A stretch of DNA of 54,313 bases, counting the filler, from Asterionella formosa (taxonomy: Eukaryota): the NCBI GenBank assembly GCA_002256025.1. It is 4 parts of 4 records of this genome, joined end to end, with 100 filler letters (N's around TTAATTAATTAA, not from the genome) between each part and the next. Parts side by side here need not be neighbours in the genome. Positions count along the whole stretch, not along the records: positions 27,229 to 40,721 come from NKIB01006640.1; 3 more parts are not named here. The stretch is one strand, 5' to 3'. The translations under genes and the position numbers were made by a program. Under the pieces are notes generated by a model, which did not search any database, was not told the DNA's origin, and saw only the letters and a list, made by a program, of their open reading frames with translations. Below are positions 2,031 through 46,882 of this stretch, piece by piece; position 1 is the stretch's first letter; each line of letters starts with the position of its first letter.

Positions 2031-2304
2031 ACAACGAAATTACAATAGAATAAGAACAAGAAAAATTACAGCAGAAACAACAGGGACAGCGATAAAGACA
2101 ACGAGAACACAACCATGATAGCAGAAAAGACGACAAAAACGACAACAATAACAATAATTTCTTTTTACCATGAATGTGATATTTTGTTCCTTTCGTTCCA
2201 GCAGTAGCTGTTTTTCATGACGAAAACTGGTGCGGACGGTCCTTCAGTGCTTGTGGACTGATTGTAAGTGCTGTGGCAACAAGTATTCTAAAACGCAGCT
2301 GCAA

Positions 2305-15667: not shown

Positions 15668-16907
15668 GCTTTTCTTCGCACTTTGAGGGTATGACTTGAT
15701 CGCAACGCTTGACTTCTATAGTTTCATGTACACCGCTCAATTCTGTCGTTACTGCGGTAGGCTTATCCATGCACTGTTAAGATGCTCGTCTATTAAATTG
15801 AGTACCGCTAGATAACATAATGAAGTACGAAATAATAAGGAGAAGGAAAATGAATGTTAAAATCGAAATTGTCGCCAAGGAATCTTGGACATGAGAATAG
15901 ATTCTCAACAGGTTACGACCGCTATGTAAGGTTTACAGGCATGCATCCTGTTCGTTAGATTCTCAACATCCAACCACGAAGAAAGAATGATAAATACTAC
16001 TCACTCTGTTAATTATTACTATGCGCGCAGCCAATCATGGGTGCACAAACAATCGACACGACAACCAGTCAGACGTGCGATGTATCGTACCGGTAGGACC
16101 GGTATATATGATGTAAGTACCTTGTACTTACCAGCGTACCGTTATTTGGGGTCGTGAAAAATAAGCAGCAACAAACTTTGGGGTACTGGTACTGGTACCA
16201 GGTATTTACTCCGAGTATGGACCAAGGGTACCCCCAGGTACCAGTAGCGATCAAATCAGTCGTGAGCGCCGCGTCACGGTTCGTATGAAAACTTGCGTCT
16301 ACCGGTTTACGTGGTTCTTACAAGCAAAAGTTGGAGCATAGTACAGAGCTGCCTACTGGTCCAAATATACCAGGAAGGTCCGGTGTAGCACATTTGGTCC
16401 TTAAGAGAAAACTGAGCTAAATCTCTCGATTACACGACCTTCTAGGTACCCTGAGGGTGGTACCTGGTACCTGTAAGTAGCGGTCATTTGGCCGAAAATG
16501 GAACGCGGCGCCGGCAAGCACTCATATTCGACTCCCCGGTAATATTACTTAGACAATATAAAAAATGCTAACGGTTTTGCGCTGGCCAATAAATTTCATT
16601 ATTATCAAAATATAATTTTTAGAATCATTATCTGAAAAAACCAGTTTCCGAACCTTGCTGCGATTAGGGGGTTTTGGATTTGGGTTTTTTCTCCCCAACG
16701 CAATTTTGAGTTTCAAGACTCCTTATTCCAGAAATCTCCTACTTTAAATGCATTTTTCTACTGGTATGAATGTACTGAAGTCCAAACAGTGGTTGTGGTA
16801 AATATCGGAATGCATCATACATAAGAGTACGACGTAAGATGGTACATACATCTTGCATTCCTGTATGCATACCGGCATCAACTACCGATTCATAATGGTA
16901 CCAGGTA

Positions 16908-19070
16908 CCAGTTAAAAATGGCTTTGAGCCAGTTCAAATGGCTTTGAGCCAGTTCGAATGGCTTTGAGTCAGTTCGAATGGCTTTGAGTCACTTAACGAT
17001 AAAATATTCACTATGTATACATACGTAGAATTTTTCTAATTTTCAAGCTATGACAATATTTAGTACGACAAAGCTGTTCCTGATGTTGCGCCGGATACAA
17101 CATATCTAGTTGTTGATTATGTCTTGTGTTTTAGATAATCAGATAAATGTGTCAGAAAGTAGCGATCGGCCCAAAAAAGGCAAAAAAATATTATACCATT
17201 GAGCCGGCATCTCCCGGAAATACATATACTCATTTGTGGACAAAACTTAATATCTAATCTATATATAGTTGCGTTTAACCGCCATGGACCATGTACAATA
17301 GCAATAAATGAGTAAGTTAGTCACTCTTAGTAAATGGAAGCAATATTTCTTGAAGGCCAAGAAATGGAGCCATATTTTCATGTCAGAGACCGCAATTCAC
17401 AGCAGAAATTGCTTCCGACACACCAAAAATTGAGGCGAATCGCAGTCATCTCATTAACAATGATGAAACCTATGACAGTAAGAAAACAGCCTCAACCCCC
17501 CAAAAGTACAAGGTGATACCCATTTCTTTGGATAATACAGAGTAGCATCACTTATTTCAAAAAAATAGTTTTGGAATTAGAAACTTGAAAGGCAAATAAC
17601 AATGGCAAACTACTACTAGCTATATGGTGCAATATCGAATATTGTTGCATCGAAGGCGGTTACACTGACTTGGCAAACAAAACTTATAGTCCAGTACCAT
17701 TTGTAGAAGCTGAATCAGGCGGGAAAAACAACTAATTCACTAGTGCAATTATATGCAACTATGACAATAAATGATTCACAGTCGTTGGCAGGACATAGCT
17801 CATCAATTTCTTACCTGACTATAAATTCAAGTTTAAAGAGCCAACTCACGAAATGCATGAGAGACATACTCACCCAAAAGGACAGGCACCATGCTGCATT
17901 TGCTGTTGAAAAGGAAGATATTGTTGACCTGGTGTCGAAAGCATGGGATGAATTGCCTCCTTCACCCATATCGCTACAAACCAGAAAGCTGTTGCAGAAA
18001 AGGGTTGGGGTTCATTGAACTACAACTTGTTACTCCATCCGCAAATTCAACTGACAAGTACCTCAAATCTGCAAACAGAAGCAAACAATAATCAACCCGC
18101 CTCTTCCATTCCCCCATCCAGACTAAACTTGAGCCAAGGCATCACTGCAACCCTTGTTGATCAGGTTGTACAGTACCGCAATCGTGAGGACGCTAGAAAC
18201 GGAATAAATCTGGACAAACTTGCTTGCCTGCCAACAAAAAGAAACAGTACTAATGGCGATTGCAAGCAATAAACCATACACATCTGGTCTTCATGTCGTC
18301 GCTGCAGGCAGTTACTTGTTGGGTCCGGAAGTGGTCGATGACCAGCTAAAAAGGAAGAGGTGTGCAAAAGAAGTGCAGAGTGAGCGAGAGAATCGGAAAA
18401 TAGATGCACACATGGCGCTTACAAACAAGGTTTATGCAATCAGATTGCTTAACAAACAGTCAGCTGATTGGACAGTAGCACAAACGAAAACAATGGCAAC
18501 ATGGTTCAAGCGAGCAGGCAATCTTCCATTGCCAACGACGAAACGGCTACTACTTACTAGATTCCATGACACCATGATGCTTGGCGATGCTGCAGCACCA
18601 GTTGCAACTGCTGTAACGGCGCCACTTCCTCAGCACCCTTTGGTCGCTCCTATTACACAACAAGATATGATGGGAGGACCACAATTCTAAAGAATGATTC
18701 AACAACTACTGCGAAAAAATACGAGGAGATAGAACCAACAAAAACACCATCAGTCTAAAAACGGTGCAACAACTTCCAAAAAACATGCAAATGATATATT
18801 ATTTTCTAACCATTGCCTATAAAAAAAACTACATGTATGGAAAATTTTTAATCAATGGCTTTGAGCCCCTTCGACCGTTTTTGCCACTTTAAAATGGATA
18901 GATCTCAGTTAAAATATGTTCAAGTAAAGAAATGATCTAATTCTCATGTAGCTTAATGAACTAATTAATATCGCCGTGCCAAAGGGCGGAAGAGGGGATC
19001 GATTTTAGCATACTTCTAGAATTAGTCGGAAAACGATGTAATAACGTGGCTCAAAGCCATTTATAACTGG
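16908..19070 (+). mobile_element. Tc1/mariner-superfamily (pogo-like) element, 2163 bp, internally deleted
   Basis: TA|CCAGTTAAAAATGGCTTTGAGCCA ... TGGCTCAAAGCCATTTATAACTGG|TA (24-bp TIR, 1 mismatch, TA TSD). Four 20-bp subterminal repeats AATGGCTTTGAG at 16918-16991 and another at ~18854. Confidence 0.88.
17830..18690 (+). pseudogene. Frameshifted C-terminal part of a pogo-like transposase
   Basis: DIVDLVSKAW / NQKAVAEKGWGSLNYNLLLHPQI / WTVAQTKTMATWFKR..LPLPTTK in shifting frames; no DDE core found. Confidence 0.6.
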
Positions 19071-20558
19071 TACCACCCTGGTACAATTGACTTCATGTCA
19101 GTACCGGTATATGGTTGTTAGTAAATAGGCTACAAGTATGTATGTTCTTGGAACATGATGATTGCCGGTTTGGCAGTCTACCAGTAGTAACATCATGACG
19201 ATGATGATACGCCTAGTATTGTAAACAGATAAATCACGAATTATAAACCAATTGTTGTTTTCAGCTTCTGATATTATAGAATATGTCTACTTGATGTACG
19301 GCGGTTATATATGAACTACTTGGGTTTTGATTCGGCAAGAAATCATGGAGATATTGTCGTTGCAGTCGAATTCCATGTTGCTTCCGCCGATTTTCTATTT
19401 TAGCTATATCGCAATGAATATAAAAGCTACAAGTTCGTTTCTTCAACTACTTGCTAGCGACACGTGTATTCTTCCTAAGAAACTAATAAAAGTGTTAAGC
19501 AGTTGTACAAAATCGAAAATTAACAATCATTTTATCATGGTAATGGGAAATTTCTTATGTTTGATTCATGAGCGATTGTATAATTCTTCTACCGGTACCT
19601 GGTACCCGGTGTGTAGGCAGAGAGCTGGCGGGTTCGATTACCGGTATCATGTTCTTTGGTCCCTCTCCTGTGCGCGGATCTGACCCCGACGGAATCTAGC
19701 TCTCCGGTAAACCCCCCCAATTTTTTCGGATTGGGGTTTTTTCGATTGGGGGAATCAGTTTGACCATAAAATAGTTCCTGCCAAATCAAATTCTAGCATA
19801 ATAGTATTCAAAACGATCATGCCACGAATGAAAGATAACCGTTTTCCGAGCTAGCCAGATTATGTAGTTTATTACTGGATCTCCAGGTATTTTATATCCG
19901 AGATGTCAAAATCGTCATTTCGGCAATTTTACCGCAACTTGCTGGTACATAGACATACCGCTGATATTTCTTGATTGTTGCTTCGCAAGTATCCAACATT
20001 CTTGCTTTCACGAAATGATACACATGTATTAAAAATGGGGAACCAAATTTTAGAATTATTTTAAAATCGGGACCCAATTTTTAATACTGACCACAGCAAT
20101 CACGCGTGATTGTTTTGTAGACAATGGGTTTATTCCTCACGTCATGTAAATGAGCGAACAGATGATGTTTGACCGAAAGTCTGAGTTGAGACTATGTAGT
20201 GGTGGCCGAAGGCTAACTCCGGGTAGACTGTTAATTAAGAAAATTTCTGAGTTTCTTCTCTCATCAGTTTAGGTGAATGAAGTTTCTTTGTCACATTCAG
20301 TGAATATAGGTGATCATGGTTTTGAATAGTCCGTGATGATGGGCCCTATAGGTTTGATTTTATTGTTTCATCTAAATCTATAACAGTATAGTAGTTTGTT
20401 TGCGAAGAGATTTTAGTCTGACATTTCCTCGTATAAGTGTAGCTTCATCAAACAAAATTCTTGGTCATCAATCAGTGTTCAGTTGATTACATCGGTTAAA
20501 TTGCAGCCAAAGGCTGACGCAAAAGTATTGATGCAAATATTGAAGTTTGTTATTCGTC

Positions 20559-22097: not shown

Positions 22098-24169
22098 TAC
22101 TCTCTTTATATAATAAGGATGTTACGACATATTACCCGGGAGCTGGTACCTGGTACCTGGTACCAGTACTGTACATAAAGACAGTAGAGTATGGAGACAA
22201 ACCAGTATAAGTAAATTTTGAATAGTACCGTAAAACCTGGTGTCTCGTATCCCCCCAGATACCTGTACCCCCCTTGGTACATCTGGCACAACACCCCCAA
22301 ATATTTCATGTCTACAGAAAAAATAACAGCATATTATTGTATTCTAGCTATTTATTAATGAATTTACTATAATTGTATTCTTACCGGTCACCATCATGAA
22401 ACAGCAATCAACAACAACACGAGTGATGCCAATGACATTTGCGATGGCGATATCCTTGTCCTGAGATCTATTTCAAAAGTCGAAGCTGCAACTTGCATGC
22501 TTGTTGTGGAGCGATTATCAAGCTGAATGCTAAAGGCTCAGGCAGTTCTGGCCTTGATGTTGTCGGCTTGCCGGAAGTGTTCACAGAATCATTTCGTCTG
22601 CTGCCTCATGATGCAGAAATATTTCGTGCATGTCATGATTCTGGTCGAATAATCATATAAGTGATGTGGTTGGCTTATATTAATTTCCATCACGATCCAA
22701 GTCGTAGAGTCTACACAAGTTAATACAGTTGTAGGATTAGGTACAAATGCGTACACACACTTGGAATTACTATTGATGCCAGCACAAAAATCGTGCGCAC
22801 CGCTGCACCAAAAATAGAAATTCTTTTGATCATAGAAACTGTTTGAACCTACAACAACAAAAAAAAACCTAAACGTAATGCGTTTGGGTAACTTATTGGG
22901 ATATGGGCACGGAATCCCCTAAACGTAATGCGTTTGCGTTGAGTTTTTCCCTCCCATTAGCATCGTTTTTTAGGGTTATCGAAACCAAAACACTGTTTGG
23001 TTTGCGTTTTGGTCCACCGTTAGCAACGGTCTTTATATATTAGATGTCTATAAAAGTGTTGCCCTGCAGGCTTATTTTCGGTTATCTTGTCAGTGACAAC
23101 GGAAATGATACCCGCGTGAAAATGTCAGTATCACTGATACCGTTTTTGGAGGGGGCAAAGTTTAGCACAAACCATGCATGGTTATTTTTAGTACCAGTAC
23201 CACGTACGTATGTAGGCCAGATGACTACCGGTAGAATATCCGTTAATGTTGCTATTTACGTTTTAGACTACGGAGAAAACGGTGGTGAAGTTGGTTTGCT
23301 CGCAGTGTTGGATTATCAAAAAAGGTCCAATGTCTTGTACTCCCCTCTAAGTAAAATCAGTCGTGGCTGTGTACATTGAGGGGTACGAGAGACCAGGTTT
23401 TACGGGTACCCAGGTACGACCAGATTAGAAAATACTGCAATCTGAACAATGTGTACATAACACTACTGGGTTGGACGTACCGCTTCAAGTACATACTTCG
23501 TGCTTGGCTGGATGGAAAAGGCAGCCGTACCGAGGCGAAGATGCATCGCAGCCAGCGAAGCGAGCAAAAAAACAGTTGGAATAATTCTCATACTTCCTTG
23601 CTCTTCAAAATTGAAGTTGAATTGTGACTGCTAGCCAATAATAAATAATACTCCGTATATTCAAAATCAAATCCTTGAGAACCCACTCTGAATCCATTTA
23701 TTTGAGAACCCTGCTACCCTCCTAATCAATCATCATACATACAAGGTATATCCGTGCTCATACTTTCAATACTGGTATCATCATTTCACGTACAGTAAAA
23801 AATCTGGTTCTCCACCCTCTGCCATGGGGTCTGTGTCGCTCTTCATACGAGCGAGATGACTATTGTACCAGTACATATGCTTACCATATATTTAGACTAC
23901 TACCTGGTGGGTACCTGGTACCTGGTGACCAAGTGAGCTCCATAACGGTATCACACTCTATATGGCTATCATAAAGGGTTGTGACATAAATAAATGTCAG
24001 CACTCGATAAAAATATCTAAATATATTTATACAATTACAAATTGTTATAAATGTATACATGGCTAACACATTTGAAATCATGTTTAAAGGTTCCTTGTCA
24101 ACATGCATGCCGGTGCACATCCTGAATTGATGGCTCTGCTGTAGGTATTGCTGATGCTGCTGGTGTCCT

Positions 24170-25787: not shown

Positions 25788-26276
25788 ATTGTCTGAGCTT
25801 AACAGGTCCTCTGCCGATATTTTTCTGCTTGTGAGAAGCACACGCACAAAGAGAACTAAAGGGTAAGTTGTAAATCAGAAAAGTGTAAGTATAGCAATGA
25901 TTGAATTTGGGTTCTTGACAACTCCTTCGGGCAAGCAACTACTACCGGTACTGGAGTCTACTGGTATTACTACTGCTGGTAACCTCATACAAACAGCAAA
26001 TAGGACTCGCAGCGGTGAGTAAAATTACTCATGTGACTTGTTCGGCCGAATGCCACCCATACTAGTTACCGGTAGTATTCCGACGGAAAACAACAAACAA
26101 CCGTGCGTACGAAGAGTACACCAGTAGACACATGCTAGTAATGGTCGTTGTGTCTTGCTTTGTACCTGGTACCAGGGTACCCCGATACCAGCAAGTTGCG
26201 GTCATATTGCTTAAATAAAAAATTTAATATATAAAGGATAAAGAAGGTGGGGAATTTTAGGTTAAATTAATTGCCC

Positions 26277-26438: not shown

Positions 26439-27679
26439 CATTCAATACTTTTGTACAGTGTAAAACGGATGACGGATTCTGATGGTTCATACCGTACTTA
26501 GCTTGAGGTCGGTACGTGATGCATTGGATGTACCGGTACCAGGCAACAGGTACCTGATAGGCACCTGACATCGAGCATTGATGTACCGGTAGATAAATAG
26601 AGAATTATACTTGACGGTACTTATGACTTACTATGATATTATGGAGTATCAATACCGGTACGAGGTACCAGGTACCTGGTACCTGATGGATGCGCATACA
26701 TACATGTCAGTACGTACCGGTGTGTTGTAGAATCTTGTCGGCATGAACTTTTCTTTGTCCTTGTCATTAAATATTGCGAAACCATATGATCGGTCTACAT
26801 TTTGCCACGGCTCACCTTTGTCATTGCTAGCAACGGATGTGCTCATTTGTATGAAGCGATGATCGATTATCGCAGCAATCAACCGAAGTCCATGCTGTCT
26901 CGTCAATCTCTGAAATACTAGCTAGTAGTATGCAGCAAAATTGCGGGTGAACTTTGGGTTGTGGTATCTTGTGACAGTTGCATGTTGGTAATGCGACCAC
27001 CATTCTAACAGCTCGTTGCATGTGTGGATGTGATTTTAAAATAGAATGTTGATGACTAGATATCATGACAGCCATGAAAATGTTCGTTTGATTATGTAGT
27101 CGTCTGATTTATTCTGTTTACCATCCATNNNNNNNNNNNNNNNNNNNNNNNNNNNNNNNNNNNNNNNNNNNNTTAATTAATTAANNNNNNNNNNNNNNNN
27201 NNNNNNNNNNNNNNNNNNNNNNNNNNNNACCAGGTACCTGTTCTATTTATACTATGGGTACCAGGTACCACCAGTACTGGTACAGGTAATATGATGACGA
27301 ACGCTCAGGGCGGATGAGGATTGAATTCGGTTGGTGTCAGCTACTTCGTACTACCGGTAGGACGATACTTGGTAGGTACTCCTACACAAGAATGCATACA
27401 CCTGGTACTCCGACCAGGGTACAAGTACCTTGAAACTTTCCCGGGGTGCCAAACATGGGAACAATCCAATCCAGTGGCTACTGTACAATGATGTTTAATA
27501 GAATCTAGAATCAACCATGTACTGGTAGTCTACTAGAAATTAGTCAGTTTTATAGCCGATTCGTACTCCACTACCGGTACAACCTGTATTTCTATAGGAA
27601 TTTATTAATCATTGTACCAGGGTACTACCTGGTACCTGCCGACAAGACGTGTGCTTCCCTAGTTTTGTTTGTGTAGGTG

Positions 27680-27917
27680 AGTCCCCAACCACCTTTCGCG
27701 AAAGGTGATCACCTCAGCCACAGCATTAGGTGAAACTCCGACTGCATAGGAAGGCGGCACACGCTGCTTGTAGACTGTTTCTTGCACACCAGGCAAGACC
27801 ATGCAGAATGTTAAGGAGTGTCAGAGGCAAACACAACAATTGCTTCTCAAAAATAGAATCGAACCACACAAGCAACCTCAGATCAAAGGCAACATGCTAA
27901 ACCACTAAGCCATTCCC
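27680..27917 (-). mobile_element. Second tRNA-headed SINE-like element (3' boundary uncertain)
   Basis: Minus strand GGGAATGGCTTAGTGGTTTAGC ... GTGGTTCGATTC (A and B boxes, head similar to 10060); body differs; no clear TSD. Confidence 0.55.
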
Positions 27918-29908
27918 TCATGTACCTGTAGTCTCATATGACCATTAACAATGGACCAAACTGCTAAACTACAAATATACACTGGTAAAAAAAATCATTG
28001 TCATCATACAGGGAACTACTGGTAAACAAACGTTGGCTGGTTCATTGCTTGTACTCCAAGTAGCTGAGGTTTTATCGTGAAGATGCAGAACATACATGAT
28101 GAAATACCGGGAGGTACAGGACATTCCATACTTCCTCGCTATGTAGAAAACTTCTTGTGTGTATCATGCACAGACCTGGCTGTTTTTTCCCAAATATCTT
28201 GCGAAATTCTAGTTGTGCACTCTTTTGTGAAGATCACAAGAACTATAATTTCTTAAAGAAAGTGTGAGCTATTCCAAATATTGATTCCCTGACAATCCAT
28301 CTACAAATCACAATTTGCCACTCCTCAATCATCGCTACACATGTCCATAGAACTACCAATTTGAAGCTTTTCTTGCCCCTGCTGATCTTTTGATTGTAGC
28401 ATTCTTGCTTAAACAAACCCTCGCCAAATGGGTCTTTTTCTGGTTGCCGATGTCTGCTTTGAAATATGTTTCTTGCTTAAACTTCCATTTCTCCGGTTCA
28501 ATTGCAAGTTAACCCATTCCTCCTCCTCATATCATCGTTATCGCTGGTTCCGCAACAAGAAAGAGGAGGTATGAAAATGTACAACTGAGTGAGATTCTGT
28601 TGGACAAAGATATTCGACAATGTCCGATTTGCTGGTCATCACTTACTGTTAGGAGGTGTCAATGTTCGTTTGCAACATGAGGGACTACAGTTACAATTAC
28701 CTCACCTCCAAGCGGCTGCCTAAGCCCAACAATCAATCTGTGTGATGTTGTGAGACATCAATCAAAGCAAACGAGATAGCAAGGGCGACAATCACTGCAA
28801 CAACAACAATACAGATGATGTGCGCCAATCTCATATTTATGGTGAACTTGTATTGTTCACTATACATATGTACTGATAGCTTTATCATGTTGTTATGAGT
28901 GGCTGGGGGGGGACAAAGTCTACAAAGGTTGCTACATAAAAATATATGAGTGATGAATCTCCAAAGTTATAAAATGGCCATGATTTGTAATTTTCGACTT
29001 TATCTGTTGGCAAATCTTGGCAGCATTTTAGACTTCAGCTTTCTTCATATGAAGAAAGCTTAAATATGGAATGCTTCCAAGATTCGCCAAGAATGAAGAA
29101 GTTGAGAATCGAAACAACAGCAATGGACCCTTCATTTTTCATCACTTGATCGGCATCATGAAACAATATTAATGTAGCTATTAAAACGTAGGACTAACTA
29201 GGATTCTGTTTACAACAATTTTCAATTGCCCACTTTATCAACAAACATTTGAAGCACACAATGTTGCAAGTAATGTGCTCGATTTTGAGTACCGGTAGAA
29301 AACTGTTGTTAATATGCAGCACATAATATGTTCAAGCAACAAATATGCGGTTAGTACACAATACTCATTGTCACATGCTCCACTGTTATCAATTTTGGTT
29401 TCAACAAAACAGCCATTGACCATTTAGCTAACCAGTAAATAATGAAGAACAAGTTTCACACTGAGAGAGATCGAACAAAAAGACTTAAAAATACCCTAAA
29501 AGTGCGAAAAAGATCTTCAAGACCATAACGGCAAACAAAAGACTGCTGAACCATGGAGACATCTACAAAGAAACCGCAAAAGAAGTGGTGAACCCAGACA
29601 TGCAACATTTTCCTGCCTTTGTCTCCAGGTTTTTGCAGTCTTAAGCATTCATGTCTGGTTTTCTGTACTCTTTTGAGGTCTTTTGCAAACTTCGCATTCT
29701 TTTTGGAAAACATGATGCAAGGTCAAGTTTAGAAAAACATAATATTTGTACGTGTCTTTTCGTACTTCTGAGTTTCCGGCACCTCCCTGGTTACAAGTAC
29801 CATTAGTCTGGATTGACAATGCGTCTATATGTTCCTGTATGTACTCAGAGTACCAGGTAGAGTACTATTATTATTAATATCACAGAGAGTCAGTCCAATG
29901 GAATTCCT

Positions 29909-30238
29909 TTACATTGGCATCAATGTATACGTCTGAGTTTCCACAGTAGTAATACCCTCAATTGCCTTGAGTTTCTCCAAAAAGTCCGACTCTGGAGCGA
30001 ACCCAGTCTCCTCCCATTTTCCAAATTTGTCAGCGGCCAAGGAAGTAATGACTTTAAAATCCAAGCAACCTCCACAAATGACCCGTTGGACTGTTCCAAT
30101 TTGCTTGAGGTCCTGTAGAATCTCCACAAGTGCTGCTTGAGCGGCAATCAACGATGCCTTGTCATTCTCAGCTGACCATTTGCAACGCCACTCACGAGCA
30201 ACTGTATCAAATTCGACGCCGTCGGCAATGGTAATCAT
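29909..30238 (-). CDS. Small conserved-looking algal protein (109 aa) with a CGGC motif
   Basis: Clean ORF: EFDTVAREWRCKWS...VQRVICGGCLDFKVI...VETQTYT. I recall similar algal proteins of unknown function; not verified. Confidence 0.8.
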   Translation of the reverse strand: MITIADGVEFDTVAREWRCKWSAENDKASLIAAQAALVEILQDLKQIGTVQRVICGGCLDFKVITSLAADKFGKWEETGFAPESDFLEKLKAIEGITTVETQTYTLMPM

Positions 30239-30339
30239 AATGAACGAATGTCACTTTTCTTTTTTAGTAATAGTGATGATCAGAACAACAAAAAAACCGA
30301 TTTGGATGACAGCAGACTGCCTTTGCTGATACATATCGG

Positions 30340-30490
30340 ATACCTGGTACCGCCCGTACCTGGTACCGGTACCAGGTACTGTTACCTGGTGAGCACCGGT
30401 ACCTGGTACTGGTACCCTGGTACCTGGTACCATGTAGTTCCAGTTACCAGGTACCCGGTGCGTATTTATCCCGGTACCTGGTACCGGTAG
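30340..30490. repeat. Densest of many intergenic TA-CC(A/T)GG-TA / GGTACC chain clusters
   Basis: TACCTGGTACC...TACCTGGTACCGGTACCAGGTAC...TACCTGGTACTGGTACCCTGGTACCTGGTACC... Confidence 0.85.
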
Positions 30491-31006
30491 TCAACGGCAG
30501 ATCTGATAAAACACGTTTTCTCCTTCGAAAAAGATATATGAATAAATATCTCAACCACTGGCCCTTCCCCGGTCGTAATTTTTGAGTTGCTGTACACCTC
30601 CCTAGATTGGGCTTTAATAACTTTATCTTACCGGCAACCGTTTCGGTAGACGCGATGATGCTATCTATTCTACAAGTCCCCTTCTGCCGGTACAGAATAT
30701 GATATACCAGTTGTGCCTGGGAGTTCCGGTAAAAGGCGGTTACTACTATGAGAAAAACACAGCTAAATCTCTCTTTCACCACAACTTGTGTTGAATTATA
30801 TGGCGCCTACTCTAGCGCGATCCAGTACTGCCCTGGAATGACCGGTCATGGTACCAGTACACACATCATACATCATACCATCCTACACCACAGGTATTTT
30901 ACTACCGGTACCCTCTAGACGACGAAAAGACAAAGCGAGTACGGTATTCAATGTTTCAAATTGTTCTTTTATTCCGGCCAAGCCTTACAACATACCAGTA
31001 TTTGCC

Positions 31007-31791
31007 ATGATGAGCATCCCCTACCGCAAGGCTACCATTGAAAAGCCAGAAATCTCCGTTGCCCGAAATCTATCAAATGACATTCGAAAGAGAGTGAGAA
31101 TGGATGATATCGGTCTTCTTGAGACAAACGATGAAGACCAGATGAGATATCCTTCTACGCCTCATCCCGCCAAAAAGCAAAAAGGAATGTCCGATGACAG
31201 CTCAAAGGAACATGTTGGAAGAGTTGAAGTGGATATTCATAGTTCATCCTATGAGGTAAGTTTCAATTGCAAATGAATACTTTTGAATCAGATTTCATTT
31301 CTCATGGAAGCTTACATCACACGAAAAATCTGCATTCAAATTTCCCGCCAACACAGTCTCCTCCAGCCATTATCATGACCACTTCTTCGGATTCAGAAAA
31401 ATTGCCAGGAATTCCCGATGAAGATCCAGAATGGGATGAACTGATCAAGCACGAGCCTGCCAAAACTGATGTTCCTATCTTTTTAGCTGCACGAGATCGT
31501 CGTGATCAGTCGGATGAGCGGTTTGCTGCCATGCTAGATGAGTTCCATGCTTCCTACAAGGCTTCGACCGATGCATTACTGCAGTTCGCTGCAGACATTT
31601 ACGATATGCACAGAGAGAAATTGGACTTTATGGAAGGCAATGTCAAGCAGTCTATGGTATGGAATAATGAAACACGAGCAAGAATGGAGCAGACCGTTGC
31701 GGAATTGGCGACGACATCGCAAGGAGCCATTGCGGGTTTGCTCATGCGCCTCAATGGAGTTATGAAAAGAAATGAACAGAAAGAAATGTGA
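31007..31791 (+). CDS. Hypothetical protein (~227 aa) with helical/coiled-coil C-terminus; exons 31007-31255 and 31357-31791
   Basis: A phase-0 intron GTAAGT...ACAG joins two adjacent ORFs in frame. Confidence 0.7.
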
Positions 31792-32105
31792 TAGTATTCG
31801 AGTTAGGTATTTTAAAAGTTGGGGCAGATCATTTGACTTTTCCGAAAAAGCTGCTTGATGTAGACTTGTGCATTGTCGGGCTTGACGTCGTTGTTATTAC
31901 CTAATTGTTTACACATTGAAAGGCTAGATACAGTCAGCTGTCACCATGTAGGCAAACTAACTTGAAGACATCGAGCGAATGGAACACAGCAAGCTGTTCG
32001 TGCATAGCAAGTATACCATATACATGAAATTTTCTTTCGGCAACTATCTTTGCCAAAAGAAGCTGCAGACCATAAAAGAAGCAAGGCGCTTTCGTGTAGG
32101 CCCCG

Positions 32106-32615
32106 CTATGTCGATACTGTATCCGACGCTTCCGCTCGTTCATCGATTGGATCCAATGCTTTGTCCTGGTTCTTCACAAGGTGAATATCAGAAAAACCAT
32201 AAAACTCTTCATCACGAGAAGATCCAGTACTTGTTGAGCTCTTAACTGCACTCTTGAACGACGTATCCACTTCAACAAAATCATCTGTTGGATGTATTTC
32301 AGCTAATCTAAACGTCACCAAATTCACATTGAAACTTCCAATGGCGTCGTACCTCCGACGCTTTTCTAACGCCTTTCTTTGTCTCTTTTGAAATAAAAGT
32401 TGTTCCCTTCGGCTTCGCCGCCGTAACCATGCTTGCTCTCTCCGATGCAGGGCATCCGCCTTGGCAATGACAGCTGACCAATCAATTTCCTCCTCGTTCA
32501 AGATCATGGCCCACAGTTGCGATTGACCTACTTCTCGTTCCTCTTCCATCTTTCGTCCACCAGCATCAGTGTCACAAACGATGCAAGTTGCTAAACTAGT
32601 ATTTATATTTCCCAT
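32106..32615 (-). CDS. Hypothetical protein (169 aa)
   Basis: ORF starting MGN (possible myristoylation), basic helical segment, convergent with the previous gene. Confidence 0.6.
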   Translation of the reverse strand: MGNINTSLATCIVCDTDAGGRKMEEEREVGQSQLWAMILNEEEIDWSAVIAKADALHRREQAWLRRRSRREQLLFQKRQRKALEKRRRYDAIGSFNVNLVTFRLAEIHPTDDFVEVDTSFKSAVKSSTSTGSSRDEEFYGFSDIHLVKNQDKALDPIDERAEASDTVST

Positions 32616-33294
32616 TTTTGAGTGAGGTTTGTTCTTGTTGTTGTTCGAACCCCTCCCCCTCCCCCCCCAAAGAAGCTTTTGTATATTGTGGATTGGTGGC
32701 CCAGACGCTGTTGTCGAAACTCAAGCCACAAAAAATCGTTGGACAACGTCGTTGATGTTCTTGTTTGCGTGCAGTCTCTTATTGCACTTTTACTGGTCGC
32801 AATGAAAGTGTGTATGTTTCAATGCCCTTGAGACTTCCTTTCACACATAAACACGAAGCGTTGAGTGACGTTGTCAAGGCAGAGGTATTAAAATAATATG
32901 TGCTTGAGACAACGATTTTGGCAACGACGACGAGCAAACCCGCTATCTCCAAATTCATCATCACTCTGGATTGGTTTGGAGTCGACCATCTATGCATTAT
33001 ATATATATATCAAAAATTACCGCCTATTTTGTGAGTTGTCCGATCTACCGTGATCAGGCGCAAGGGACCATATAAAAGTCCTCAACACTGGATATAATCA
33101 ATATGCAATGATCTGCGCTTTGTCTGTTGAGGGCATTGGCTGGGGTCGTCCCACGACTGCTATTTCCTTCTACCAGTAGCTGGACAAGGTTTGTATGATA
33201 TTGTATGTACAAACCACCATCAGACATGGGACCAGGTACCTGGTCCCAGTACCGGGGGTACCTGGTCCTCCTACAGTACCAGGTACTCCGAGTG

Positions 33295-33378
33295 CCTGCA
33301 AGTTGCGGTAATTGTCCTTTAGCAATCTTTATCCTATATTAAATTGTTTATTTAAGCCAAATGACCGCAACTTGCTGG
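33295..33378. mobile_element. 84-bp mini-MITE with CC(A/T)GCAAGTTGCGGT TIRs
   Basis: CCTGCAAGTTGCGGTAATTG ... CAAATGACCGCAACTTGCTGG. Its right half matches, inverted, 26188-26245. Related ends at 16470 and 19945. Confidence 0.7.
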
Positions 33379-33411
33379 CACCTGGTACTGGTACCAGGTA
33401 CCGGGTCCTGG

Positions 33412-35538
33412 TGAAGTATCTAACTAGAAGTAGAACATAGTATTTGTTGAATATATGAGCCTATTAGTTAATCGATCCCCTAGGTTGACAAATAAGTATT
33501 CAAATAGGTGTTAGTCAAGTTCTCTCCTGATAGAGCTCTGATATATCTATGTAAACCTAACCCTATAGGTATGTCTGTAGTTGAGCAAGATCACTCACTC
33601 TCCCACACCAAGGGAAAACCTTTCACCTATGAAAAGGTTTGATATGACAAATATTAATTCGTTCAGTAGTAGGTATGATAATTAAGTGAGATCATGCATG
33701 GGATAAATTGAATCCTGCTATGCAATTGGAATATTTCCACATTTACAAAAAAGAGCAATATTCAGACCGTAATTACCCTGTAAATAACAAATGATATCCA
33801 GGTGATGACTGACATGAGACATATTCAATGTTTTGTCATGTCTATATAATAATAGCATTGCTATTGTTGCACATGTGCAATCTGTTCAGCATTTGGCTGG
33901 TTTTTGTTAGGCACATAGGCCACTTGCTGACAAACAGGAGGGTTCATGACCACTAAAATTTAGTGGGCAGATTCATAAAAGTCAGCAGGTATGGCCCTAG
34001 GCACAGTAACCTAACCAGACATCGTGTCATAGGGTTAGCCCATGGATTTTCAGAAAGAAATGCATGCAAGGCAGAAAACATGAATAGGGTTAGCCATGTC
34101 AATATGATAATTTGCTCTGTGTAGAATTTCCATGCAAGAGGAACAATAAGTGTGTTAGCAGTGTAAGTAGTCTTAGTAATAAAAATAACTTGAGGGGCCT
34201 TGTGTTTAGCCATTGGTTCACAACTGCATGCATGGCTGGCTGCGATCATGATTGCATGTGCACTGCCACAACCGCTTTGTGTAAAAATATTGTGTACAAC
34301 TTTTTATTTATTCACACACTTGTTTTCTTGATGCATTATACAATTCGTCACACTTGGTTTCTTGAAGCATTATATGGTTGCCTTCAACTTCAACTATATA
34401 AAGAAAATTTCGTGTTAAAAATTGACACAAGTCCCGCTTGGTTTCTTGATGCATCACATGATTGCCTTCAACTTTAACTATATCACGACAATTTCGTGTT
34501 ATAAATTGACACCAGTCCCACTTGGTTTCTTGATGCATCACATGATTGCCTTCAACGCTCTTGTATCATGGTAGAATCCATGCTAGGGGGATATGCTTAA
34601 GAAGGTCTTGGAATGATTATTGACTCTCAAAGTAATTCCAAACCGAGCAAATCCATTGGTCTGTGTTGCTTTCTTTTTACAATTCAAACTGCTGCTGCCA
34701 CACATCAAGCATAGCAGAGTAAACTGCAATCATCATCAAATCTTTCTTGGTTAAAGTCTCTTGATCTTTTGGATGATACACGAGCTTGAAGAGTCTATTT
34801 CTGGTTTTGAGACAGCATCCGAAAGTCCATTAAGAAATGCTGAATGGTGTTGTCAAATATCAGAGCATCCACTGATGCTGACACTGAAAAGCTATCCTGA
34901 AGAAGAAGAAGAAAAAGTTGCACATCCAACCATATCACCATGGCATCATCAAAACTTTTATCAGGCTGATCATCTGGGAGCACGACTTCAATGTTCATCC
35001 ATTCAGACAAGGTGATTTCTGTAAGGCACCTTTGTAATAGAAAGAAGGTATTTCTTGCTGGAGGTTAGACAAACAATGTCATGGAATTAGCTCACAGCAA
35101 TCAACAAAGCTTCCACGGAGTTCCATGAATCTCATCTTGCTTCTTGCTTGAAAGACTCAAGATGTCGAACTGGTGTGAATGAATGAAAGGTGATATTCTT
35201 GATGTTTAGTAAGTTGAAATCCTAGATCAAGCCCAATGGGACCACTGGGACTTGAGAATACATCAACATTGTTAATTCTAATTTGAGTCTTTTTGACTTC
35301 AAAGTGAAGTATCTAACTAGAAGTAGTAATATTTGTTGTATATATGAGCTTAGTAGTTAATCCTTGTGTGTAACTCAAAAATCTCCTAGGTTGATACCAC
35401 TAAAGTATTCAAATAGGCATTAGTCGAGTTCTCTCCTGGTCGAGTTCTCTCCTGGTCGAGTTCTCTCCTGATAGAGTTCAGATATTTCTATGTAAACCAA
35501 ACCCTATAGGTATGTCTGTAATTGAGCAAGATCGCTCA
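33412..35538 (-). mobile_element. Non-autonomous LTR retroelement (2127 bp); LTRs 33412-33597 and 35305-35538
   Basis: Both LTRs run TGAAGTATCTAACTAGAAG...GAGCAAGATC(A/G)CTCA (TG...CA). 5-bp TSD CCTGG at 33407-33411 and 35539-35543. Minus-strand purine tract GTGGGAGAG next to the 33597 LTR. Decayed gag-like text (SAMLDVWQQQF). Internal ~84-bp repeats at 34320-34556. Confidence 0.88.
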
Positions 35539-36191
35539 CCTGGTACTCTACCTGGTAACCAGAGCACCATACAGGGTCAACTGACATTGTCATCGGCATG
35601 TCATTCAATATACACATACATGGCTTTACCTGTATGTGTGGAATATTCCACATACTGGTACTCAGTACCAGGTACTCCTTGTACCAGGTACCAGGTACCA
35701 GGTGCTCCTTGTTGATTAATTTAATTGCATGACAGAACTGAAATTTATAGTAAAGTTTTGCATAATACTGTATCTGTAGCAATAAAAATAGATACACACT
35801 TTGGAGCAACAAAAAGTGTGTTGCTGGAAGCAACATATCACTGGTATGATGGCAATTGGGCTTGCAGCATATTCTTTCAATTTATATCTCTGTTAAGACC
35901 TGCTGGCCTAATTGTGAATTTTTTAGCTTCCTAGGAAAGCCATTGCTCTTGACAACCAGTATGGATTGAAGCAAGTTGAGTTTACTCTTGACAACCACTA
36001 TGGATTGAAGCAAGTTGATTATAGTTCCGCTGAGAAACAACTTGTTGCCATTGTTGTACAATGGAAAACGTTTATGAACAAAGGTCGTTCCCTTCTAGGA
36101 GTGCGATTTCTTGATGACAAAGTGACTGCATGCTCAGATATTTATTAGCTAGTTTTCACGTATCACAGAACCCAACCTGTAACAAGCCTCT

Positions 36192-37172
36192 CTATGGATT
36201 ATAGTTTCCCTCTGCAGAACAATTCTTCCAATCTGGTTCCGACAAAGCCTTATAAACCGTTTGATTGTATGTTACATTGGTCCATGGTGGATGAACTGTA
36301 ACTTGTTCTTGAAAGCACTTCATGTAGGGACAATATTGGTCCACACTCATATAATATGCATATGCACATGTCAGTTGAGGATCTCGGCCCCACGTCGAAA
36401 CTCCATTAATGTATTGTCCCCAACACCATGCCATGGCCATTCGGGACCACCATGTGTCAAAATTAAATTGCATCCCCACTAACCAGCCAGCAAACCAATG
36501 ATGAAAATGAAAATTGGGATGAGACATTTGCGGCACGAGCCAGACACTTGCTGCAAGTGTCAGTTCCACCAACTTTCTCATGACAAGTTTGTGCTGACGA
36601 GCGTATTGTACATGAAGAGCAATAATGGCAGTGGAAATAAGTAGAGCTGCAACCAAATAGAACCAAAGAGACAAAGGCCAGTGGCAGTGCATGTCATACA
36701 GGCTGACTGAATGCTGAAGAAACCCAAATGTGTATGAGCAACTTGTGTAGATGGATGCCATCAATGTGGTCAATGTCCAGGCCAAGTGATCAACCCCTTT
36801 TTGCTTGTAAAGTCTGCCAACGACGAAAAAGACCATGACGTCTAGCATCATGTTTCCCGCATCAAAGAGTAGCATATCCTGCAGCGAGAAATTGGCATCG
36901 TGTTCCCAGTCCATGAAACGAGCCAAATGGAACATGACGACAACGGCGAGCACGGTGATGGCGGTAAACTTTAGCAGGCGCACAGCTTCCACTCCATCCA
37001 AAATTTCCACGTCGTATATGCTATACCAATGGTCCGGGATCCAGTTGCGGTGCCATAGATCCGGTGCAACGATGCAGTCTTCCTCCTCGTCTTCTTTCAA
37101 TCCCACCAACTCGTAGGGCCCTTGTTGTTTCCGAGTCGGCTCAACTGCTGCAGCTTCTTCGTCGTCCGACAT
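36192..37172 (-). CDS. Multi-pass membrane protein (326 aa), unknown function
   Basis: Long ORF with several hydrophobic segments, a His-rich HPNFHFHHWFAGW motif and a Cys-containing C-terminus. Confidence 0.85.
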   Translation of the reverse strand: MSDDEEAAAVEPTRKQQGPYELVGLKEDEEEDCIVAPDLWHRNWIPDHWYSIYDVEILDGVEAVRLLKFTAITVLAVVVMFHLARFMDWEHDANFSLQDMLLFDAGNMMLDVMVFFVVGRLYKQKGVDHLAWTLTTLMASIYTSCSYTFGFLQHSVSLYDMHCHWPLSLWFYLVAALLISTAIIALHVQYARQHKLVMRKLVELTLAASVWLVPQMSHPNFHFHHWFAGWLVGMQFNFDTWWSRMAMAWCWGQYINGVSTWGRDPQLTCAYAYYMSVDQYCPYMKCFQEQVTVHPPWTNVTYNQTVYKALSEPDWKNCSAEGNYNP

Positions 37173-37759
37173 GGCTTAGCAGTGAAAGGGAGTTCAGGGT
37201 GAGAGGAGGCGAATGGCTTGGTCTCTTTTTGTGGTTCGTTCCTGTCACTGAAGCCATGCCAAGACACGGCGTTCCGATTTTATGTACATACTAGCCAAAA
37301 TTGAAATGATTTGATCCCCCACACGTTTGTCATTTCTCTCAATAGATTTACCGGTACCGGTAGGAAAATCCGGTAAATATTAATATTCATAATTAATAAT
37401 CATATTTTAGCCTATTTCATCATAATATTAACGCTGTACTGTACTTCTACACCACCCTAACAAATGGTCGTAGCTATAATATTCAACAAGAGCAAGAGGA
37501 TGGCTGCTCGGCCGGAGGAGACTATACCTAGTATGGTACCTGGTACCAGGTACCTGGTACTCCAGGTATCCTGGAACCAGTACCAGTACCGGTATTATAT
37601 CTCATGACACCGGGTACCACGTAGTCTACCAGGTACCTGGTACCGGTATGTGAATGCACATCACCAAAGAGCACAATTCTTTCGTCGATCTCGTCGTGAT
37701 CACTCGTGGCTGATGGCTGTCTGATATTATATTTATTCAATCCACCATCAGCAGCCACG

Positions 37760-38163
37760 ATGTCAATCAACAACAAAAAGCTTCATCTTCAGGTTCAGTA
37801 TTGTGGTGGGTGAGGTGAGTCTTTGTGTGCGTGATGTTGTATCAAGTTACTGAAATATGAGTTAACGCAGGTCAATTTCTTCTGTTTGTTCCATGATACT
37901 CCAACACAGGCTACAAGAGGTATTACCATTCACTCAAGGACTATTTTTCAACCACCAATGTCGCCGAGCAGCTGGAATGGGTAGCCTTGAAAGATCGTGG
38001 TGTTACTGGTAATTTTATTGTTACGGTTCTTCCTTCTGGACACGTTTTGCACACGAACAAGGGTGGTGGCGTCAAGAAAGGAAAGGCACAAACCATGGAA
38101 GAACGTCGCGCCATTTTGACACAGATCCAAGTCTTGTTGGAAGATCAAGAGGAAGACGAATAA
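37760..38163 (+). CDS. SELENOW: Selenoprotein W-like (Rdx family) protein, 102 aa, Sec at codon 18; exons 37760-37814 and 37910-38163
   Basis: MSINNKKLHLQVQYCGG-TGA(37811-37813)-G|GTGAGT...ACAG|GC-YKRYYHSLKDYF...DRGVTGNFIVTV..GHVLHTNK. YCxxUGY and TGxFxV..G..LHxK are SelW hallmarks. Candidate SECIS downstream. Confidence 0.92.
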
Positions 38164-38200
38164 AGTATCTCTGAAAGGCAAATGTTTGTCAAAACAGCAA

Positions 38201-38276
38201 GTGGGAACGGAAGGAATGACGGCAATTGCGTGGTAACAAAGAGTTCCATAAGAATGCCTGAACGAAGGATACCCAA
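38201..38276 (+). promoter_or_regulatory. Candidate SECIS element in the 3' UTR of the SelW-like gene
   Basis: ATGAC (38216-38220)-GGCA...GTGG-T-AA (38235-38236)...CCAT...TGCC-TGAA (38259-38262): UGAN/NGAN core, helix II and apical AA; weak helix I TGGG/CCCA. Confidence 0.75.
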
Positions 38277-38915
38277 GAGATTGAGAATCTACTTCAGACC
38301 CCAACTTTGCTTATATNNNNNNNNNNNNNNNNNNNNNNNNNNNNNNNNNNNNNNNNNNNNNNNNNNNNNNNNNNNNNNNNNNNNNNNNNNNNNNNNNNNN
38401 NNNNNNNNNNNNNNNNNNNNNNNNNNNNNNNNNNNNNNNNNNNNNNNNNNNNNNNNNNNNNNNNNNNNNNNNNNNNNNNNNNNNNNNNNNNNNNNNNNNN
38501 NNNNNNNNNNNNNNNNNNNNNNNNNNNNNNNNNNNNNNNNNNNNNNNNNNNNNNNNNNNNNNNNNNNNNNNNNNNNNNNNNNNNNNNNNNNNNNNNNNNN
38601 NNNNNNNNNNNNNNNNNNNNNNNNNNNNNNNNNNNNNNNNNNNNNNNNNNNNNNNNNNNNNNNNNNNNNNNNNNNNNNNNNNNNNNNNNNNNNNNNNNNN
38701 NNNNNNNNNNNNNNNNNNNNNNNNNNNNNNNNNNNNNNNNNNNNNNNNNNNNNNNNNNNNNNNNNNNNNNNNNNNNNNNNNNNNNNNNNNNNNNNNNNNN
38801 NNNNNNNNNNNATACCAGGCACTCTTGCTGTGCACAAATTAAGTCTCAGAATAAACTACATGGAATGTTTGAGCGCAGGGGCATTGCGACAGCAGGAAGT
38901 TTGTGGAACATAAGA

Positions 38916-45986: not shown

Positions 45987-46882
45987 NNNNNNNNNNNNNN
46001 NNNNNNNNNNNNNNNNNNNNNNNNNNNNNNNNNNNNNNNNNNNNNNNNNNNNNNNNNNNNNNNNNNNNNNNNNNNNNNNNNNNNNNNNNNNNNNNNNNNN
46101 NNNNNNNNNNNNNNNNNNNNNNNNNNNNNNNNNNNNNNNNNNNNNNNNNNNNNNNNNNNNNNNNNNNNNNNNNNNNNNNNNNNNNNNNNNNNNNNNNNNN
46201 NNNNNNNNNNNNNNNNNNNNNNNNNNNNNNNNNNNNNNNNNNNNNNNNNNNNNNNNNNNNNNNNNNNNNNNNNNNNNNNNNNNNNNNNNNNNNNNNNNNN
46301 NNNNNNNNNNNNNNNNNNNNNNNNNNNNNNNNNNNNNNNNNNNNNNNNNNNNNNNNNNNNNNNNNNNNNNNNNNNNNNNNNNNNNNNNNNNNNNNNNNNN
46401 NNNNNNNNNNNNNNNNNNNNNNNNNNNNNNNNNNNNNNNNNNNNNNNNNNNNNNNNNNNNNNNNNNNNNNNNNNNNNNNNNNNNNNNNNNNNNNNNNNNN
46501 NNNNNNNNNNNNNNNNNNNNNNNNNNNNNNNNNNNNNNNNNNNNNNNNNNNNNNNNNNNNNNNNNNNNNNNNACAGGTTTATAAATACCGGTATGTTGCA
46601 GAACAAAATGACTCAGAAAGGTATTACCCGATACACGGTACCAGGTAGTGTACCATCATATCAACGTAAATAAGAGTACTGGTACATACCAGGTACCAGG
46701 TATGAATTGATCTACCGGGTACCGGTATGTGCTCTAACACCCTGGTGGTGTCCATCCTTTTTCAGAGTATCGGTAGGAATGCTACCGGTATGATAGCAAA
46801 TGCAGTACCGGTAGTTTACAAGTAATAATACAACCTGTATCACAAACTTATTTCAATGTTTCTTCACAAGTTATAGTGCTAT

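What the first reader, a model, noticed from the sequence alone, without database searches (positions are those of the whole stretch)
30340..30490. Intergenic TA-CCWGG-TA chains may be stacked excision footprints of TA|CCAG...CTGG|TA transposons
Seen: at least 15 intergenic clusters (e.g. 11771, 13940, 16190, 21625, 22140, 23905, 26655, 27230, 30340, 33230, 35680, 37530, 46640, 48460) made of TA separated by CCAGG, CCTGG, CCGG, CCAG or CTGG, and rare in the CDSs. Two TIR families here start TA|CC(A/T)G and end CTGG|TA (16908-19070; ends at 16470, 19945, 26188), and the pogo-like element sits in a GG-TA-CC site within such a chain. Known: Tc1/mariner excision leaves the duplicated TA plus a few terminal bases. 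Inference: each footprint recreates GGTACC, so repeated insertion and excision could grow the chains as self-reinforcing intergenic landing pads. The LTR element's CCTGG TSD also falls in one. An alternative is a promoter or chromatin motif, since several clusters lie upstream of genes.
Basis: partly seen in the sequence, partly recalled or inferred. Interest (0 to 1): 0.75.

Follow-up and report, generated by a model that had tools for sequence, protein, structure and literature searches.

The report
Self-renewing transposon scar chains in alga
The DNA between this alga's genes carries tens of thousands of tiny palindromes that are most likely scars left by cut-and-paste jumping genes; one family's scar rebuilds that family's favourite landing site, so scars stack into chains that other jumping genes then land in.

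Summary
The chains are real: TACCWGGTA occurs 46 times in the window against 0.4 in shuffles, and 5,576 adjacent pairs occur genome-wide against 2 for the control. The footprint reading holds, with corrections. There are two scar types with two makers. CCGG units have the unbiased flanks of CCG-ended pogo families (GG: 9/167 units, 0/24 element ends). CCWGG units have the GG|TA bias of a CCAG/CCAC-ended, Mos1-like transposase group (71/146 units, 43/65 ends). Repeat copies show both unit types as fresh insertions at a plain TA. 45% of adjacent units differ in orientation, which argues against slippage. The minor scar CCAGGG/CCCTGG (47, against 2 for its mirror) points to a 4-nt staggered cut. 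Most CCAG/CTGG spacers are probably CpG-decayed CCGG. No excision was observed, and no occupied/scar allele pair was found. The scan reported these scars before on other pieces of this genome; one such note did not find the maker. New here: the likely maker family and the flank, order and stagger tests.

The parts
30341..30489 (.). Focal chain of TA-bounded units (CCTGG, CCGG, CCAGG, CTGG, CCCTGG plus decayed units), about 100-250 bp upstream of the 109-aa gene
   Evidence: 10 perfect units; contigs of runs X5 and X6 are 6 bp shorter over 29149-30430, and the indel table lists 6 letters left out at 30403
29909..30238 (-). 109-aa gene with relatives in other organisms, no Pfam hit; the chain lies upstream of it
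   Evidence: (238 relatives, best 80 at 50-71% identity)
31273..31791 (+). 172-aa ORF on the other side; the chain lies in a divergent intergenic region
   Evidence: function not examined (no Pfam hit)
16908..19070 (+). Decayed CCAG-ended DNA transposon (family 1), TA duplication, inserted at GG-TA-CC beside a CCAGG unit inside a family-2 element; member of the proposed maker group of CCWGG scars
   Evidence: 17824-18588 matches the 779-aa DDD protein of L256 at 40.5%, E 1e-32
16474..19941 (+). Family-2 element, TIR CAAGTTGCGGT, direct 3-bp duplication CTG/CTG; inserts in the centre of C-CWG-G
33299..33374 (+). 76-bp miniature element of family 2, CTG/CTG duplication
26192..26202 (+). Family-2 end preceded by TACCAG
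33412..35538 (+). LTR element (TG...CA, LTRs about 33412-33597 and 35305-35538) with CCTGG duplication at chain edges
22228..22237 (+). End of a CCG-ended pogo family (family B), proposed maker of TACCGGTA scars
37537..37648 (.). Second large chain cluster (8 perfect units), upstream of the 327-aa ORF on the minus strand
46586..46813 (.). Chain cluster (6 perfect units near 46640)

Best explanation
The units are excision scars of TA-duplicating (IS630-Tc1-mariner type) transposons. SHOWN: a group of elements with CCAG or CCAC ends, encoding a Mos1-like DDD transposase, duplicates TA and prefers GG|TA|CC. CCG-ended pogo families duplicate TA without that preference. CCWGG and CCGG units have arisen as insertions at plain TAs and carry the flank bias of the matching group. 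INFERRED: the CCAG-end transposase cuts 4 nt inside its ends. The two CCAG 3' overhangs anneal as C:G, A.A, G:C and repair gives TA-CCAGG-TA or TA-CCTGG-TA at random. Other registers give CCAGGG/CCCTGG and some CCAG/CTGG. CCG overhangs anneal through CG and give TACCGGTA, which decays at its CpG. A CCWGG scar made at GGTACC leaves two GGTACC sites, so insertion and excision recur at the same place and chains grow. About a tenth of adjacent pairs are better explained by slippage. A CWG-duplicating miniature family and an LTR family use the CCWGG core as their target; they use the chains and do not make them.
For: Spacer spectrum in 251 kb: CCWGG 105 (expected 3.5), CCGG 97 (4.4), CCAG/CTGG 81 (15.1), CCA/TGG 48 (53.5), CCATGG 0. 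Flank match, outer flanks only: GG in 71/146 CCWGG sides vs 9/167 CCGG sides (all TA: 2094/30652); element ends GG 26/40, 6/8 and 11/17 for CCAG/CCAC families vs 0/15 and 0/9 for CCG families (Fisher p 2e-19 and 3e-9). A young CCAG family (9 copies, mostly 99.5-99.8% alike, one 95.8%) has GTA 9/9 and GGTA 7/9. TA duplication: inner +1/+2 conserved 51/52 and 49/52 vs outer 43/52 and 40/52; L248 and L253 do not fit 6- or 4-bp duplications. De novo origin: an empty paralogue exists for 22/295 CCGG units vs 8/2483 other 4-mers; empty-majority paralogues for 27/74 CCGG and 5/20 CCWGG units vs 1/46 CCA/TGG; the same TA carries CCTGG in L121 and CCAGG in L314. One homologous site in family-2 copies carries varying numbers of units in mixed orientation (up to five or six in L105), a family-1 element (window) or a CCAC-end sequence (L099). 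Order: 2,502/5,576 adjacent pairs are discordant; T-then-A 1,500 vs A-then-T 1,002, the direction predicted from element flanks before the count. Stagger: CCAGGG/CCCTGG 47 vs mirror CCCAGG/CCTGGG 2 in all 846 kb held, 9 vs 2 in the 251-kb sample. 132/187 GGTACC sites touch a unit. Fold: top six Foldseek hits are Mos1. Mechanistic precedent: PMC7827188 (passages) and PMC1925063 (passages).
Against: No excision was seen, and no site was found occupied by a CCAG element in one strain or copy with exactly one extra unit in another. Three of the 5 de novo CCWGG cases rest on one paralogue each, 22 of 23 apparent CCWGG hits were chain self-offsets and were discarded. The focal 6-bp strain difference is an exact tandem repeat and fits slippage equally. 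Concordant pairs are in excess, 55% (p 2e-14). About 29,000 CCWGG scars (extrapolated from 105 in 251 kb) against some hundreds of element remnants (626 first-look candidates) needs a long or intense history; this was not tested. The element-flank estimate for the order bias, 12:7, is not significant by itself. Elements next to a unit (9 of 26 GG-flanked family-1 ends) are not clearly above what GG preference gives (about 485/2094 GGTA half-sites, arithmetic). The transposase has no Pfam or PDB sequence hit and all fold hits have E above 0.001. Units are denser 5' than 3' of ORFs (CCGG 42 vs 9, p 8e-6; CCWGG 32 vs 17, p 0.06), which selection for a function would also give. The 846-kb set is biased to transposon loci and some CCAGGG units there are shared by descent.
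Confidence: 0.8

Rival explanations
1. The palindromes are a selected promoter or chromatin motif, and transposons merely target it.
For: Denser in divergent than convergent intergenic DNA (CCWGG 0.97 vs 0.33/kb) and 5' of ORFs. TACCGGTA is a listed high-confidence promoter motif (M94) in Phytophthora infestans (PMC3597505, passages), and the sister motif TACATGTA binds a MYB factor (PMC11134190, passages). Three unrelated element types land on it.
Against: Units arise ready-made as 6-7 bp insertions inside dead transposons. Two unit types have different flanks that match two element groups. The CCAGGG/CCCTGG asymmetry has no binding-site logic. Only 13 of 80 loci of the neighbouring gene's relatives hold any CCWGG unit, in about three lineages.
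Confidence: 0.07
2. The chains are a 7-bp minisatellite grown by replication slippage from chance seeds.
For: 10% excess of same-orientation neighbours; runs of identical units in L105, L302, L314; the focal 6-bp polymorphism is a tandem repeat.
Against: 45% of neighbours are discordant, while central transitions (CCGGG/CCCGG) are rare, 6 vs 105. 187 of 230 runs are single units. Insertions occur at TAs with no adjacent template (24 of 27 CCGG and 5 of 5 CCWGG non-tandem).
Confidence: 0.05
3. A host process other than transposon excision (break repair or template switching at GTAC/TA palindromes) writes the units, and element ends resemble them by coincidence or adaptation.
For: Scars outnumber visible elements by tens to one. 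Many other small TA-duplicating insertions exist whose makers were not identified (TA-C/G-TA, TA-GC-TA).
Against: Template switching predicts alternating orientation above 50%; observed 45% discordant, and 4 alternating among the first 50 triples listed (counted by hand). De novo units appear where the flanks offer no CCWGG template. The main products equal a prefix of the left end plus a suffix of the right end of resident families.
Confidence: 0.08

Closest known systems
Sleeping Beauty / mariner excision footprints (PMC7827188; passages read)
   Same: Staggered cut leaves terminal bases as 3' overhangs on the donor; end joining leaves them between the duplicated TAs.
   Different: There the stagger is 3 nt and the footprint equals the overhang. 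Here the 3-nt product CCA/TGG is not enriched and the products fit a 4-nt overhang joined in several registers; scars number in the tens of thousands in a natural genome.
Stowaway / Osmar5 footprints and repeated insertion at one Triticeae site (PMC1925063; passages read)
   Same: 1-4 bp TIR fragments inside the TA duplication; a new element inserted at the TA of an older footprint.
   Different: One intron site, varied footprints, no chain and no scar that doubles the preferred target. Here the scar is uniform and the effect is genome-wide.
NuwaI group of PHIS transposons (PMC4482050; passages read)
   Same: CWG target duplication, as in family 2.
   Different: NuwaI TIRs usually start GGG and were found in animals; family 2 starts CAAG and its transposase was not found.
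Phytophthora promoter motifs M93 TACATGTA and M94 TACCGGTA (PMC3597505, PMC11134190; passages read)
   Same: Identical or sister TA-bounded palindromes, abundant in promoters of another stramenopile.
   Different: Published as transcription-factor sites. The term 'transpos' occurs 0 times in the main text of the first paper and once (for ATAC-seq) in the second. Their origin was not tested here.

Membership tests
Tc1/mariner-type excision footprint | Duplicated TA enclosing bases of the element's termini | tested here: met
   CCWGG, CCAGGG/CCCTGG and CCGG equal end prefix plus end suffix of resident families
Tc1/mariner-type excision footprint | Derived insertion at a formerly single TA | tested here: met
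   27/74 CCGG and 5/20 CCWGG units have empty-majority paralogues; control 8/2483 and 1/46
Tc1/mariner-type excision footprint | Flanks match the element's target preference | tested here: met
Tc1/mariner-type excision footprint | Occupied allele and scar allele at the same site | tested here: inconclusive
   One homologous site holds elements in some copies and units in others, but no exact pair; strain contigs gave no letters for most indels
Tc1/mariner-type excision footprint | Observed product of excision | not testable with these tools
   needs an excision assay
IS630-Tc1-mariner superfamily (CCAG/CCAC-ended group) | TIRs and TA duplication | tested here: met
   6 full copies, 52 ends
IS630-Tc1-mariner superfamily (CCAG/CCAC-ended group) | DDE/D transposase of Mos1-like fold | tested here: inconclusive
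   Invariant D310, D459, D497 in 36 homologues; top Foldseek hits Mos1, SETMAR, Sleeping Beauty at probability 0.95-1.0 but E 0.003-0.09
pogo (Pfam DDE_1), CCAG/CCAC-ended group | DDE_1 domain match | tested here: not met
   no hit; hhalign to resident pogo proteins probability 8%, third-D motif only
pogo (Pfam DDE_1), CCG-ended families | DDE_1 domain, TIRs, TA duplication | tested here: met
   (L146, L149, L151)
PHIS / NuwaI (family 2) | Direct CWG duplication | tested here: met
   7 of 8 copies
PHIS / NuwaI (family 2) | TIR starting GGG | tested here: not met
   starts CAAG
PHIS / NuwaI (family 2) | DDE_Tnp_4 transposase between these TIRs | tested here: inconclusive
   150 DDE_Tnp_4 matches in the genome; among the 25 loci examined the only ends resolved start AGGG, not CAAG
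Slippage minisatellite | Neighbouring units identical, gains templated by the neighbour | tested here: not met
   45% discordant; non-tandem gains
Promoter / transcription-factor motif | Upstream bias | tested here: met
   (crude ORF calls)
Promoter / transcription-factor motif | Conservation at orthologous promoters | tested here: not met
   13 of 80 homologous loci hold any CCWGG unit; the relatives are distant, 50-71% protein identity, and many loci are short
Promoter / transcription-factor motif | Protein binding or effect on expression | not testable with these tools
   no chromatin or expression data examined

The most novel reading that the evidence does not exclude
A transposon whose scar doubles its own target has written the dominant promoter-proximal palindrome of this genome. 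The scars became the target code of two unrelated element types. The same process made the abundant TA-bounded 'promoter motifs' of other stramenopiles (TACCGGTA, TACATGTA in Phytophthora), some since adopted by host transcription factors: cis-regulatory sites born from excision scars rather than from element bodies.
Probability: 0.25. Interest if true: 0.85.

Novelty: new variant of a known kind. Interest (0 to 1): 0.6.

Why it matters
Excision scars are usually treated as rare and invisible. Here two scar types extrapolate to about 55,000 sites in a 68-Mb genome. That would be a direct record of cut-and-paste activity far beyond the surviving copies, with the enzyme's cut geometry and target preference readable from sequence alone. 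It also warns that motif finders will call such palindromes promoter elements, and it makes the origin of the published Phytophthora motifs testable by the same comparison of repeat copies. The unclassified CCAG-end transposase, with a GGTACC preference and young copies, is a candidate sequence-biased tool for algae.

Tried and rejected
DDE_3 search of the genome: 0 matches. Pfam and PDB sequence searches for the CCAG-end transposase: nothing. tblastn of resident pogo proteins did not hit family 1. First count of empty paralogues for CCWGG (23/339): 22 were offsets within one chain and were discarded. Strain comparison by laid contigs (4 of 24 runs, window 27235-38290 only): repeat contigs swamped the indel table (12 of 409 rows shown); only the 6-bp difference at 30403 and a net 7-bp difference in 30409-30816 (letters not shown) were usable. 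Metagenome search with the neighbouring gene returned other species, no strains. The far end of the CCAC-end insertion in L099 was not found in the 2.8 kb fetched, so that site is only a probable occupied allele. A 4- or 6-bp duplication (GTAC, GGTACC) for family 1 was considered, since it would give the same scar from a 3-nt CAG overhang, and rejected on conservation and two asymmetric copies. A 3-nt stagger was considered and disfavoured (CCA/TGG not enriched, CCATGG 3, CCAGGG 47). Literature searches (listings only) found no report of genome-wide scar chains or of these motifs in diatoms; the library lacks most subscription papers. Supplements of the five papers read were not opened. The look-up of family 1 by sequence among earlier scan notes gave nothing. 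Statements on Mos1's 3-bp footprint sequence, CpG hypermutability and open-chromatin preference are recalled, not from a call.

Full report
Setting. The window comes from a fragmented 68.4-Mb eukaryotic genome. Close matches occur in freshwater metagenomes, and named relatives of its transposase come from the diatom Fragilaria crotonensis, so a freshwater diatom is the likely host (inference). The focal stretch 30341-30489 lies 100-250 bp upstream of a 109-aa gene, in a divergent intergenic region.

The observation. The stretch parses as TA-separated CCTGG, CCGG, CCAGG, CTGG and CCCTGG units with decayed units between. Window counts exceed shuffles 14- to 120-fold. Genome-wide there are 5,576 adjacent CCWGG pairs and 1,141 triples, with controls 2 and 0. 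In a 251-kb sample (200 kb from three long contigs plus the window) the enriched spacers between TAs are CCWGG 105 (expected 3.5), CCGG 97 (4.4), CCAG/CTGG 81 (15.1) and CCAGGG/CCCTGG 9 (0.6); CCA/TGG is not enriched, 48 against 53.5. Units are scarce in long ORFs (0.06/kb) and densest in divergent intergenic DNA (0.97/kb). Most runs are single units: 187 single, 33 double, 10 triple. Extrapolated totals are about 29,000 CCWGG and 26,000 CCGG units.

Who could have made them. Family 1 (window 16908-19070) has TA|CCAG ends. Of 41 intact ends, 37 have G and 30 have GG just outside the TA, against 891 and 251 of 3,302 window TAs. Related families have the same bias: a young CCAG family, GTA 9/9 and GGTA 7/9, and a CCAC-ended family. 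They share one type of transposase. The 779-aa frame of L256 lies behind a CTGG-TA|CCAG end and has an invariant D-D-37-D triad in 36 homologues. It has no Pfam or PDB sequence match, but its model's six best fold hits are Mos1, with SETMAR and Sleeping Beauty close behind, at E 0.003-0.07. The duplication is TA and not GTAC or GGTACC: inner positions are better conserved than outer ones, and two full copies are asymmetric (p about 0.02). Separately, true pogo families (93 DDE_1 matches) include two with TA|CCG ends, one of them young, and these show no flank bias.

Test 1, flanks. If units are scars, each type should carry its maker's target bias. Counting only sides not next to another unit, CCWGG units have GG on 71/146 sides and CCGG units on 9/167; all TAs have 6.8%. 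Ends of CCAG/CCAC elements have GG in 43/65, ends of CCG elements in 0/24. The match is two-way. CCAG/CTGG units have GG on 18/147 sides, nearer the CCGG value. They are the CpG-transition neighbours of TACCGGTA (81, against 7-18 for the other neighbours) in a sample with CpG observed/expected 0.71, so most are probably decay products (inference).

Test 2, de novo origin. In repeat copies, 22 of 295 CCGG units have a paralogue with a plain TA, against 8 of 2,483 other 4-mers. In an alignment-based recount on 846 kb, 27 of 74 CCGG and 5 of 20 CCWGG units in paralogous context have empty-majority paralogues, nearly all without an adjacent template; CCA/TGG has 1 of 46. All five CCWGG gains have G or C beside the TA, three have GG or CC, and one TA carries CCTGG in one copy and CCAGG in another. 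Three of the five rest on a single paralogue. One site inside family 2 shows the whole range: varying unit numbers in mixed orientation, up to five or six in L105, a family-1 element beside one unit (the window), a CCAC-end sequence at the first TA, and LTR insertions at CCWGG. No copy pair of exactly 'occupied' and 'one more unit' was found.

Test 3, order within chains. Slippage copies the neighbour; independent repair picks A or T at random. Of 5,576 pairs, 1,485 are AA, 1,589 TT, 1,500 T-then-A and, by subtraction, 1,002 A-then-T. 45% discordance implies that about 90% of neighbours arose independently and 10% by copying. Point mutation cannot supply the discordance, since central transitions are rare (6 against 105). 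The excess of T-then-A was predicted from the elements' preference for T at -3 after seeing 16:6 in the first 50 rows and before the genome-wide count; the element sample itself (12:7) is too small to be significant.

Test 4, cut geometry. In Sleeping Beauty and mariner the cut leaves 3-nt 3' overhangs that end joining preserves (PMC7827188, passages). With CCA overhangs the expected scars CCA/TGG or CCATGG are not enriched. With 4-nt CCAG overhangs, overlap by three gives two pairs around an A.A mismatch and yields CCAGG or CCTGG; overlap by two yields CCAGGG or CCCTGG. The latter occur 47 times with GG-rich flanks (49/94), their mirror forms CCCAGG/CCTGGG twice. Run slippage would give both equally. 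The 4-nt stagger is inferred, not observed; 1-4 bp footprints are known from Osmar5 and Stowaway (PMC1925063, passages).

The feedback. A CCWGG scar made at GGTACC leaves two GGTACC sites; 132 of 187 such sites in the sample touch a unit and 46 lie between two. This is partly true by construction, and element ends are not next to units much more often than their GG preference predicts. So the landing-pad effect needs nothing beyond sequence preference.

Family 2 has TIRs CAAGTTG...CAACTTG and a direct CWG duplication in 7 of 8 copies, like the NuwaI group (PMC4482050, passages) but without its GGG start. It splits a unit and cannot make one. The LTR element at 33412-35538 has a CCTGG duplication, and other junctions of that family in the fetched loci often lie at CCWGG or one-letter variants. 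Both are tenants.

What stays open. No excision was observed. The focal 6-bp strain difference is an exact tandem repeat. The ratio of scars to surviving elements is high. The 5' bias could reflect insertion into open chromatin or selection. The motif is not kept at homologous genes in distant relatives (13 of 80 loci hold a CCWGG unit), though a few other organisms carry the same units, including upstream of this gene. TACCGGTA and TACATGTA are published Phytophthora promoter motifs, one with a MYB binder; whether they are scars is untested.

Prior notes and verdict. Earlier scan notes on other pieces of this genome reached the scar reading, the CWG correction and the LTR targeting; they are leads and not independent evidence. 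One of them said the maker was not found. Eight literature searches found no report of such chains. Verdict: a real feature, best read as stacked Tc1/mariner-type scars with a self-renewing target (confidence 0.8); a new variant of a known kind; interest 0.6.

Noticed in passing
L256:353-2689 (G000:C14068); window 17824-18588: Unclassified DD37D transposase group with CCAG/CCAC ends, 262 homologues, no Pfam domain among the 120 listed, Mos1-like fold; a young family has at least 9 near-identical copies.
   Followed up: partly
repeat copies across L001-L328: Other frequent TA-duplicating insertions: TA-C/G-TA (79 of 529 with empty-majority paralogues) and TA-GC-TA (23 of 98); makers not identified.
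   Followed up: no
L285-L300 and more than 30 contig ends: A very young PIF/Harbinger family (AGGG ends, copies up to 100% identical, TWA/TNA-like flanks), probably active and breaking the assembly.
   Followed up: partly
L129-L138: Young CCG-ended pogo family, copies 99.2-100% identical with open frames of about 367 aa; likely current source of TACCGGTA.
   Followed up: partly
L250:2287: A family-1 element abuts a CCAC-ended element at a shared dinucleotide, i.e. stacking of two elements at one target.
   Followed up: no
window 2300-6000 and 41700-42320: Arrays of about 190-bp diverged tandem repeats in both orientations.
   Followed up: no
L156, L158-L161, L162-L171: Other organisms carry the same TA-CCWGG-TA units, 335 bp (L158) and 461 bp (L162) upstream of the homologous gene.
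   Followed up: partly
window 38916-40720, 46883-48016, 51835-52974: Ordinary genes: SNF2/RING helicase, COP9 subunit-like PCI protein, RNA polymerase Rpb3-type subunit.
   Followed up: no
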